Origin: Escherichia coli
Lineage (GTDB): Bacteria > Pseudomonadota > Gammaproteobacteria > Enterobacterales > Enterobacteriaceae
Assembly: GCF_003018255.1 (NCBI RefSeq)
Contig: NZ_CP027440.1
Length of the DNA stretch: 64,000 bases
Direction: 5' to 3' (one strand)
Numbering within the stretch: position 1 is the first letter of the stretch; every line of letters starts with the position of its first letter. Below are positions 60,562 through 60,588 of the stretch, piece after piece. Below the pieces are notes generated by a model, which worked only from the letters and a program-made list of their open reading frames with translations, did not search any database and was not told where the DNA came from. The translations under genes were made by a program, and so were the position numbers.

Positions 60562-60588
60562 CGAGTCCGGCCTTCGACCTTCGCACCA
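60562..60588 (+). repeat. Imperfect direct repeat of the tRNA-Leu 3' end; candidate right-end attachment site (attR) of the island
   Basis: CGAGTCCGGCCTTCG + ACCTTC + GCACCA versus tRNA 3' end CGAGTCCGGCCTTCGGCACCA (656-674). Confidence 0.5.

What the first reader, a model, noticed from the sequence alone, without database searches (positions are those of the whole stretch)
60562..60588. Imperfect copy of the tRNA-Leu 3' end, about 60 kb downstream: candidate attR
Fifteen of 15 bp match the tRNA 3' stem, then a 6-bp insertion, then GCACCA. This would place the island boundary at about 60.59 kb, enclosing everything from the integrase to the fosA remnant and leaving the second HNH gene and nanS/nanM outside.
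Basis: seen in the sequence. Interest (0 to 1): 0.35.

Follow-up and report, generated by a model that had tools for sequence, protein, structure and literature searches.

The report
Right-end attachment scar of leuX ICE
The short tRNA-like repeat at 60.56 kb is the right-hand junction of a 60-kb conjugative element inserted in the leuX tRNA gene of E. coli; this is an ordinary feature of such elements, though this copy is an old, damaged one shared with many strains.

Summary
The 15-mer CGAGTCCGGCCTTCG of tRNA-Leu(CAA)/leuX (654-668) recurs once, on the same strand, at 60562-60576, followed by ACCTTC and GCACCA.

In E. coli HCP6S3_I1 an intact leuX runs straight into the DNA right of the scar, so the insertion is window 675-60588.

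- **The element.** Most of the insertion is a PFGI-1/ICEclc/SPI-7-type ICE with a full 558-aa integrase ORF.
- **Link to the ICE.** An ~85-bp arm left of the scar is conserved at the right end of related ICEs. It carries a motif (TTGGGGGC) otherwise found only beside the integrase gene.
- **Hybrid site.** The right half of the scar and its flank also occur in hundreds of ICE-free strains, joined to other elements' ends.
- **The "6-bp insertion".** It is an extra copy of an 8-bp unit (CCTTCGCA) present in 1-3 copies among strains.
- **Right flank.** The DNA to the right is not core chromosome. It is the decayed left end of a second leuX island.
- **Prediction.** Excision through this site would leave leuX damaged.

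This is a new member of a known kind, of low interest.

The parts
590..674 (+). leuX, tRNA-Leu(CAA), the integration target. The identity block with the scar is 654-668, plus GCACCA at 669-674.
   Evidence: ARAGORN; 15-mer search.
675..896 (+). ICE left (integrase-proximal) arm. It supplies a replacement terminator hairpin with a T-run for leuX. It has three 10-bp-phased GTCCA repeats (716, 726, 736) and three TTGGGGGC-type motifs (844, 856; 889 on the - strand) reaching the int ATG.
   Evidence: Sequence; motif scan; 203 of 222 positions identical to the A31 ICE arm.
897..2573 (+). ICE integrase, 558 aa, a tyrosine recombinase with a C-terminal extension.
   Evidence: Pfam hits to Arm-DNA-bind_3, Phage_int_M and Phage_integrase. 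It is 501/558 identical to the A31 homologue, which is annotated as complete. The ORF is identical in JNE23-011, so PGAP's 'partial' flag is not a truncation.
51772..51966 (-). AlpA-family small DNA-binding protein, a candidate excision cofactor or regulator.
   Evidence: Pfam PF05930, E = 1.8e-18. The role is inferred.
52105..52995 (-). Last conserved backbone gene of the ICE (296 aa, no Pfam hit). Homology to the ~20 related E. coli ICEs stops at about 52998.
   Evidence: junction alignment.
53211..60100 (.). Right-end cargo. It comprises a GmrSD_N/DUF262 plus AAA/DUF3696 pair, two unknown ORFs, Dcm and Vsr. Related ICEs carry other defence-type cassettes at this position.
   Evidence: Pfam; RefSeq annotation; comparison with A31, C11, d1-58, Ec-U9-1 and KW21.
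60284..60447 (+). fosA remnant, related to fosA7.5, with a 258-bp internal deletion.
   Evidence: BLAST against Ec40743: window 60272-60363 matches L003 20001-20093, and 60363 onward matches L003 20351 onward.
60476..60561 (+). ICE-type right arm, about 85 bp and conserved left of every ICE-type scar. It contains TTGGGGGC (60497) and an IHF-like TCAACGAATTA.
   Evidence: Alignment A1; scar table; motif statistics and the TCAANNNNTTA element at -22 in 6 of 6 scars.
60556..60576 (+). Putative recombination core: CAAAGGC (60556-60562), GAGTCCG (60563-69) and GCCTTCG (60570-76). It is an inverted repeat around a 7-bp spacer and lies wholly left of the micro-duplication.
   Evidence: Hairpin picked up; invariant in all ICE-type scars. 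The assignment as a C-O-C' core is inferred.
60562..60588 (+). The finding: a displaced, damaged copy of the leuX 3' end (attR junction). It reads 15-mer, then ACCTTC, then GCACCA. Equivalently, it holds two copies of the 8-bp unit CCTTCG(C)A, at 60571-60577 and 60578-60585.
60589..60790 (+). Left arm of a second, decayed P4-type leuX island. It has a terminator hairpin at 60602-60619 with a T-run, and phased TCAAC repeats (60607, 60668, 60678, 60688). The integrase gene that follows in A31 and Res13 is missing here.
   Evidence: Terminator scan; alignment A2; motif scan. This arm directly follows leuX in many E. coli genomes.
61068..62992 (.). Remainder of the second island remnant: a fragment of a phosphorothioate-DNA-binding restriction endonuclease (~61068-61217, - strand), an HNH endonuclease (61354-62004, + strand) and a truncated nanS (~62426-62992, - strand).
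   Evidence: RefSeq annotation of the colinear record; Pfam HNH. The same block follows leuX in the empty-site strain.

Best explanation
Window 60562-60588 is the right-hand attachment junction (attR) of the ~60-kb insertion at leuX. Most of that insertion is a PFGI-1/ICEclc/SPI-7-type integrative conjugative element.

The site is a hybrid. Its left part is ICE-specific: an ~85-bp arm plus the core CAAAGGC-GAGTCCG-GCCTTCG. Its right part is an older, already damaged copy of the leuX 3' end (two 8-bp CCTTCG(C)A units, then CCA). That copy is fused to the terminator and left arm of a second, decayed P4-type island.

Likely mechanism (inferred):
1. The 558-aa tyrosine integrase, possibly with the AlpA-family protein and IHF, pairs the leuX junction with this site.
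2. It exchanges strands within the shared GAGTCCGGCCTTCG.
3. The circular ICE leaves carrying an intact tRNA 3' end.
4. The chromosome inherits the damaged 3' end, so excision should inactivate leuX.

Hybrid scars of this kind are best explained by serial integration at leuX, followed by excision or loss of inner elements. That process renews the left half and keeps the old right half.

Shown: the repeat, the empty-site junctions, the conserved arm, the motif link to the integrase end, and the sharing of the right half with other elements.

Inferred: the crossover position, the roles of AlpA and IHF, present-day activity, and the history.
For: - **Not chance.** The repeat is exact, unique and on the same strand.
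- **Empty site.** In HCP6S3_I1, leuX is contiguous with window 60562-64000.
- **ICE identity.** The colinear RefSeq record lists TIGR037xx ICE proteins, a MobH relaxase, TraD, a conjugative ATPase, PilL2, and STY4528/STY4534-family and ParB proteins. The integrase domains are intact.
- **Related ICEs end the same way.** Those in A31, C11, d1-58, Ec-U9-1, KW21 and Res13 carry three different cargo sets. All end with the same arm and (C/A)AAAGGC-GAGTCCG-GCCTTCG.
- **Motif link.** TTGGGGGC occurs four times in 64 kb counting both strands: three beside the int ATG and one in the right arm. For TGGGGGC, 4 of 8 copies fall in the 384 bp of arms (binomial P about 9e-8). In A31, GGGGGCAAA is found only in the two arms.
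- **Different motifs to the right.** The DNA right of the scar has a different motif set (phased TCAAC). It is the sequence that follows leuX directly in many E. coli genomes.
- **Crossover zone.** In CPww7 and NCTC9082 the same right half and flank are joined to a CP4-type island end. The switch point therefore lies inside the 15-mer.
- **Precedent.** PAI II536 excises from leuX, and its reintegration into the deletion mutant restores the complete tRNA gene (PMC3202238). Its right-end repeat in strain 536 is also damaged just after GCCTTCG.
Against: - No circular-form (attP) junction was found in metagenomes (exact pattern), in E. coli genomes or in plasmids. Current excision is therefore unsupported.
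- The fosA-arm-scar arrangement also exists in ICE-free strains such as Ec40743. The HNH-plus-cargo module next to the ICE backbone in KW21 is 91.6% identical to one that follows a different, intB-type integrase remnant in Ec40743. Part of the right end could therefore derive from another island.
- No perfect (fresh) ICE-type attR was seen in any strain examined.
- The crossover position rests only on sequence symmetry and on allele associations.
Confidence: 0.72

Rival explanations
1. The block is composite. The ICE proper ends near 53.0 kb and has lost its own attR by deletion. The defence/fosA segment, the arm and the scar belong to an older non-conjugative leuX island that the ICE landed next to.
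For: - Homology among ICE relatives stops at about 52998.
- The fosA-arm-scar arrangement is present in ICE-free strains.
- The HNH module next to the backbone in KW21 matches one following an intB-type integrase remnant in Ec40743.
Against: - The right arm carries the ICE-specific TTGGGGGC and GTCC(C)A motifs. It lacks the TCAAC/GTTGG motifs of the intB/CP4-type arms.
- Three different cargo variants all sit between the same backbone end and the same arm, with no intervening scar.
- The ICE-free fosA7.5 islands are equally well read as deletion derivatives of an array that contained such an ICE.
Confidence: 0.2
2. The site is a dead fossil. It marks the historical boundary but can no longer recombine, so the ICE is locked in the chromosome.
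For: - The copy is imperfect, and the same damaged right half is old and widespread.
- No attP junction was found.
- The ICE already has a broken topoisomerase III gene.
Against: - The putative core and the whole arm are intact and invariant across strains, and the damage lies entirely to the right of them.
- The integrase ORF is intact.
- PAI II536 excises through a similarly damaged repeat (PMC3202238).
Confidence: 0.35
3. The similarity to the tRNA end is a chance match, or the site is a decayed duplicate tRNA gene.
For: The exact match is only 15 nt.
Against: - Shuffles give 0.13 matches on average, and none of 100 gave 2.
- The site lies exactly at the empty-site junction.
- Both flanks are conserved arms.
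- Nothing upstream of the T-loop is present, and ARAGORN calls no gene there.
Confidence: 0.01

Closest known systems
Direct repeats flanking PAI II536 at leuX in uropathogenic E. coli 536
   Same: Same tRNA gene, and a P4-like integrase at the tRNA-proximal end. The distal repeat starts in the T-loop and is damaged just after GCCTTCG (TTCGAGTCCGGCCTTCG-ACCA). PAI II536 excises from leuX, and its reintegration into the deletion mutant restores the complete tRNA gene (PMC3202238).
   Different: PAI II536 is a non-self-transmissible island with a CP4-type right arm (...CATG|TTCGAGTCC). Here the element is an ICE with a different arm (...AAAGG|CGAGTCC), a longer integrase, and an 8-bp micro-duplication in the repeat.
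att sites of the ICEclc / PAPI-1 / SPI-7 / ICEHin1056 (GI-T4SS) ICE family
   Same: Integration into the 3' end of a tRNA gene, with the integrase at the tRNA-proximal end and partition/replication-type genes at the far end. Short direct repeats of the tRNA end bound the element (family features from established knowledge; gene content).
   Different: The target is leuX rather than tRNA-Gly, -Lys or -Phe. The distal repeat is imperfect, and its right half is inherited from earlier occupants of the site.
ICE remnants and ICES1 at tRNA-Leu(CAA) in Salmonella
   Same: leuX is described as a hypervariable hotspot carrying GI-T4SS ICE remnants, restriction-modification systems and toxin-antitoxin cargo (PMC4042001; PMC3401170).
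   Different: Those are Salmonella elements. Neither the flanking repeats of the S. Virchow GI-leuX nor the scar structure reported here is described in the passages I read.
Satellite phage P4 integration at leuX, and tandem 'accretion' of elements at one att site (CIME/ICE arrays)
   Same: From memory: P4 is the archetype integrase using the leuX 3' end, and tandem arrays of att-flanked elements with internal hybrid att sites are known for ICESt1/ICESt3-type elements. The window shows the same logic: the scar is attR of one element and the left boundary of the next.
   Different: I did not test these against P4 or CIME sequences. The second element here has lost its integrase and any right-hand att site, since it ends in a truncated nanS.

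Membership tests
attR of a tRNA-integrated tyrosine-recombinase element | Same-strand direct repeat of the tRNA 3' end at the distal boundary | tested here: met
   A 15/15 match plus GCACCA, unique in the window.
attR of a tRNA-integrated tyrosine-recombinase element | An empty-site comparison puts both junctions at the repeats | tested here: met
   HCP6S3_I1 aligns in one piece across the leuX|right-flank junction.
attR of a tRNA-integrated tyrosine-recombinase element | An integrase gene at the tRNA-proximal end | tested here: met
   A 558-aa ORF with Arm-DNA-bind_3, Phage_int_M and Phage_integrase domains.
attR of a tRNA-integrated tyrosine-recombinase element | An element-specific arm next to the repeat, conserved in related elements and linked to the integrase-proximal arm | tested here: met
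   An ~85-bp arm conserved in 6 or more strains, and a shared rare motif.
attR of a tRNA-integrated tyrosine-recombinase element | Recombines with attL to give a circular form and a restored attB | tested here: inconclusive
   The predicted attP junction was not found in metagenomes, E. coli genomes or plasmids. This needs PCR or another experiment.
PFGI-1 / ICEclc / SPI-7 (GI-T4SS) ICE family | The conserved GI-T4SS gene set, coupling protein, relaxase and partition/replication module | tested here: met
   RefSeq/PGAP names on the colinear record: TIGR03745/49/50/51/52/56/58/59, PFL_4669/4703, STY4528/4534, MobH, TraD, PilL2 and ParB. I did not re-run these with HMMs myself.
PFGI-1 / ICEclc / SPI-7 (GI-T4SS) ICE family | Self-transfer by conjugation | not testable with these tools
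   One backbone gene (topoisomerase III) has an internal stop. Transfer is untested.
Functional tRNA gene or pseudogene copy | A cloverleaf with an anticodon arm | tested here: not met
   ARAGORN finds only leuX. Only the last ~21 nt of the tRNA are represented.

The most novel reading that the evidence does not exclude
Displaced leuX 3'-end copies may not be decaying at random. In all 13 or more copies examined (E. coli with several element types, Citrobacter, Salmonella), the 14 nt GAGTCCGGCCTTCG are intact. The very next positions, which would complete the acceptor stem after excision, carry a lesion: loss of G, loss of GC, or 8-bp unit duplications. This could reflect selection for 'hostage' scars that make excision destroy leuX and so stabilise whatever island sits there. 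Alternatively it could be an error-prone step of the recombinase at that position.
Probability: 0.15. Interest if true: 0.55.

Novelty: new member of a known kind. Interest (0 to 1): 0.22.

Why it matters
- **Boundary.** It fixes the boundary of a 60-kb conjugative element in an E. coli lineage. The fosA remnant and a defence-gene cassette travel inside that boundary, whereas the second HNH gene, nanS and nanM do not.
- **Locus structure.** The leuX hotspot is a stack of elements separated by hybrid scars. Anyone delimiting islands, or tracing fosA7.5, needs to take this into account.
- **Testable prediction.** Loss of the element through this site should leave a defective leuX.
- **Overall.** It is a standard feature of tRNA-integrated elements.

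Tried and rejected
- **Second tRNA-end match.** A 16/17 match to the tRNA end plus the ICE arm lies on the minus strand at 61854-61838. It is inside the second HNH gene, and the ICE's own HNH homologue has the diverged equivalent, so it is coding-sequence coincidence.
- **Integrase flagged 'partial'.** PGAP flags the integrase as partial in JNE23-011. The ORF is identical to the window's 558-aa ORF, and the A31 homologue is annotated as complete. I do not read it as a truncation.
- **Circular-form junction.** I searched for right arm + perfect core + left arm. There were 0 exact hits in metagenome contigs. No place covered 80% or more of the query in E. coli genomes or plasmids.
- **Two small Salmonella 'plasmid' records.** They match the ICE left arm but are linear contigs. 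In the one I read, OX345039.1, the match lies at another tandem junction, not an attP.
- **One-genome-per-species scan.** The right-arm pattern found only Citrobacter youngae. There it sits after an AbiEii gene and before a truncated scar, which says little about ICE linkage.
- **Another attR nearer the backbone.** I looked for one near 53.0-53.2 kb. No 9-mer of the tRNA end occurs there.
- **Right end of PAI II536.** It was not in the 5 kb around the coordinate given in the review. I found it about 2.7 kb earlier.

Full report
**Observation.**
The window holds one tRNA gene, tRNA-Leu(CAA) (leuX), at 590-674 on the + strand. Its 3' end reads GGTTCGAGTCCGGCCTTCGGCACCA. At 60562-60588 the + strand reads CGAGTCCGGCCTTCG ACCTTC GCACCA.

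With up to two mismatches allowed, the 15-mer occurs only at these two places. Shuffles give 0.13 matches on average, and none of 100 gave two. The full 25-nt tRNA end has no second copy at up to 3 mismatches. The description is therefore accurate, and the match is not chance.

**Context.**
The window is colinear with E. coli JNE23-011 (NZ_AP045067.1), with 27 differences of which 17 cluster in the first 194 bp. That record's annotation shows the block after leuX is an ICE of the PFGI-1/ICEclc/SPI-7 type. It lists many TIGR037xx 'integrating conjugative element' proteins, a MobH relaxase, TraD, a conjugative ATPase, PilL2, and STY4528/STY4534-family and ParB proteins.

- The integrase ORF (897-2573, 558 aa) has all three tyrosine-integrase domains.
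- It is 501/558 identical to a homologue annotated as complete in strain A31.
- It is identical in JNE23-011, so PGAP's 'partial' label there is not a real truncation.
- An AlpA-family gene lies near the far end, at 51772-51966.

**Empty site.**
I joined window 300-674 to 60589-60988 and searched 5,426 complete E. coli genomes. One genome, HCP6S3_I1, aligned in a single piece over the whole query. In that strain an intact leuX is followed directly by the restriction-enzyme remnant, the HNH gene, the truncated nanS and nanM.

Window 1-675 and window 60562-64000 are contiguous there, with 96.9% identity for the right part.

**Both flanks of the scar are attachment-site arms.**
The same scar recurs in other strains.

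- *Left of each ICE-type scar.* About 85 bp are conserved even where the DNA further left is unrelated (alignment A1). The invariant sequence (C/A)AAAGGC-GAGTCCG-GCCTTCG follows, together with a TCAANNNNTTA element at -22.
- *Related ICEs.* Those in A31, C11, d1-58, Ec-U9-1, KW21 and Res13 share the backbone only up to window ~52998. They carry three different defence-type cargo sets after it. All end with this arm and scar.
- *Motif link.* TTGGGGGC occurs four times in the 64-kb window counting both strands. Three copies lie within 55 bp of the integrase ATG and one lies in the right arm. For TGGGGGC, 4 of 8 copies fall within the 384 bp of arms (P about 9e-8). In A31, GGGGGCAAA is confined to the same two arms. 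This ties the right arm to the ICE's integrase end.
- *Right of the scar.* There is a terminator hairpin (60602-60619) and a ~190-bp arm with phased TCAAC repeats. In A31 and Res13 this arm leads into a partial P4-type integrase gene. The same arm follows leuX directly in many E. coli genomes.

The DNA to the right is therefore the decayed left end of a second leuX island. The scar is an internal junction in a tandem array.

**The scar is a hybrid, and its right half is old.**
- The fosA-arm-scar arrangement also exists in ICE-free strains with an intact fosA7.5, such as Ec40743. The fosA7.5-HNH-nanS-nanM-nanC context is published (PMC9431306).
- In more than 700 genomes only the right part of the scar and its flank match the window, at 97-98%.
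- In CPww7 and NCTC9082 that right part is joined to the end of a CP4-type island (...CATG|TTCGAGTCCGG).
- The switch between the element-specific part and the shared part therefore lies within GAGTCCGGCCTTCG. I take this to be the crossover zone.
- The '6-bp insertion' is a copy-number variant of the 8-bp unit CCTTCGCA. There is one copy in A31-type scars, two in NCTC9082, three in CPww7, and two slightly altered copies in the window and in Ec40743.

**Mechanism (inferred).**
CAAAGGC-GAGTCCG-GCCTTCG (60556-60576) is an inverted repeat around a 7-bp spacer, which is the geometry of a tyrosine-recombinase core. It lies wholly left of the duplication.

If strand exchange occurs there, two things follow. 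The excised ICE would carry the intact tRNA 3' end now at 669-674. The chromosome would be left with leuX ending in ...GCCTTCGACCTTCGCACCA, which is a damaged acceptor stem.

A precedent exists. PAI II536 excises from leuX, and its reintegration into the deletion mutant restores the complete tRNA gene (PMC3202238). Its distal repeat in strain 536 is also damaged just after GCCTTCG.

Hybrid scars are most simply produced by repeated integration at leuX, followed by loss of inner elements. That renews the left half and keeps the old right half.

**Open points.**
- I found no circular-form junction, so present-day excision is untested.
- The HNH-plus-cargo module beside the backbone in KW21 is 91.6% identical to one in Ec40743 that follows a different integrase remnant. 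A composite origin of the last 7.5 kb therefore cannot be excluded, and I rate it at about 0.2.
- Every displaced copy examined has its lesion at the same spot after an intact 14-nt stretch. The 'young left half, old right half' model explains this, but selection for scars that penalise excision is not excluded.

**Comparison with known systems, and verdict.**
leuX is a well-known integration hotspot in E. coli and Salmonella, and GI-T4SS ICE remnants have been described there (PMC4042001, PMC3401170, PMC7545054). A direct repeat of the tRNA 3' end at the far end of such an element is expected.

This is a new member of a known kind, of low general interest.

Noticed in passing
window 60570-60588; L006 ~16507; L014 ~11985; L015 ~12001; L018 42393; L013 529; L016 ~1500: In every displaced leuX 3'-end copy, the lesion (loss of G, loss of GC, or 8-bp unit duplication) starts immediately after an invariant GAGTCCGGCCTTCG. 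Every live tRNA has GGCACCA. This holds across several element types and three genera.
   Followed up: partly
window 26-194: Of the 27 differences between the window and JNE23-011, 17 cluster in the ahr gene just upstream of leuX. This suggests a recombination tract ending near the tRNA.
   Followed up: no
window 53211-58344: A GmrSD_N/DUF262 protein sits with an AAA_15/DUF3696 ATPase, followed by two ORFs with no Pfam hit, next to Dcm and Vsr. This is a defence-type cassette at the ICE right end. A31-type ICEs carry a different cassette there (FtsK-like, PAPS-reductase/DUF4007), as do KW21-type ICEs (Dcm/ATPase/helicase/Vsr).
   Followed up: partly
window 60284-60447: The fosA remnant is only ~92% identical to fosA7.5 and has a 258-bp internal deletion. 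Homology to fosA7.5 strains starts just 12 bp upstream of the start codon.
   Followed up: partly
window 45886-47691: The ICE's topoisomerase III gene is split by an internal stop (two ORFs of 135 and 465 aa).
   Followed up: no
window 15444-25541: The ICE cargo includes a chaperone-usher fimbrial operon preceded by a tyrosine-type DNA invertase. A serine recombinase and two ParB/RepB-like genes follow. This may be a nested element.
   Followed up: no
L007 6376-6775 (HCP6S3_I1): The flank of the empty-site strain is mosaic. The first 35 nt after leuX resemble the A31-type allele (97%), and the next ~365 nt resemble the window-type allele (98.9%).
   Followed up: partly
L005 14764-14775 (Res13-Lact-ER01-35): In the third strain carrying this ICE variant, the scar is cut off after GAGTCCGGC. 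It is joined to unrelated DNA holding an AbiE-type toxin-antitoxin pair also found in Citrobacter youngae. A second complete scar lies 2.7 kb further on.
   Followed up: partly
window 61838-61854 (- strand): A 16/17 match to the leuX end plus the first 9 nt of the ICE left arm lies inside the second HNH gene. I judged it coincidental because the ICE's own HNH homologue has the diverged equivalent.
   Followed up: yes
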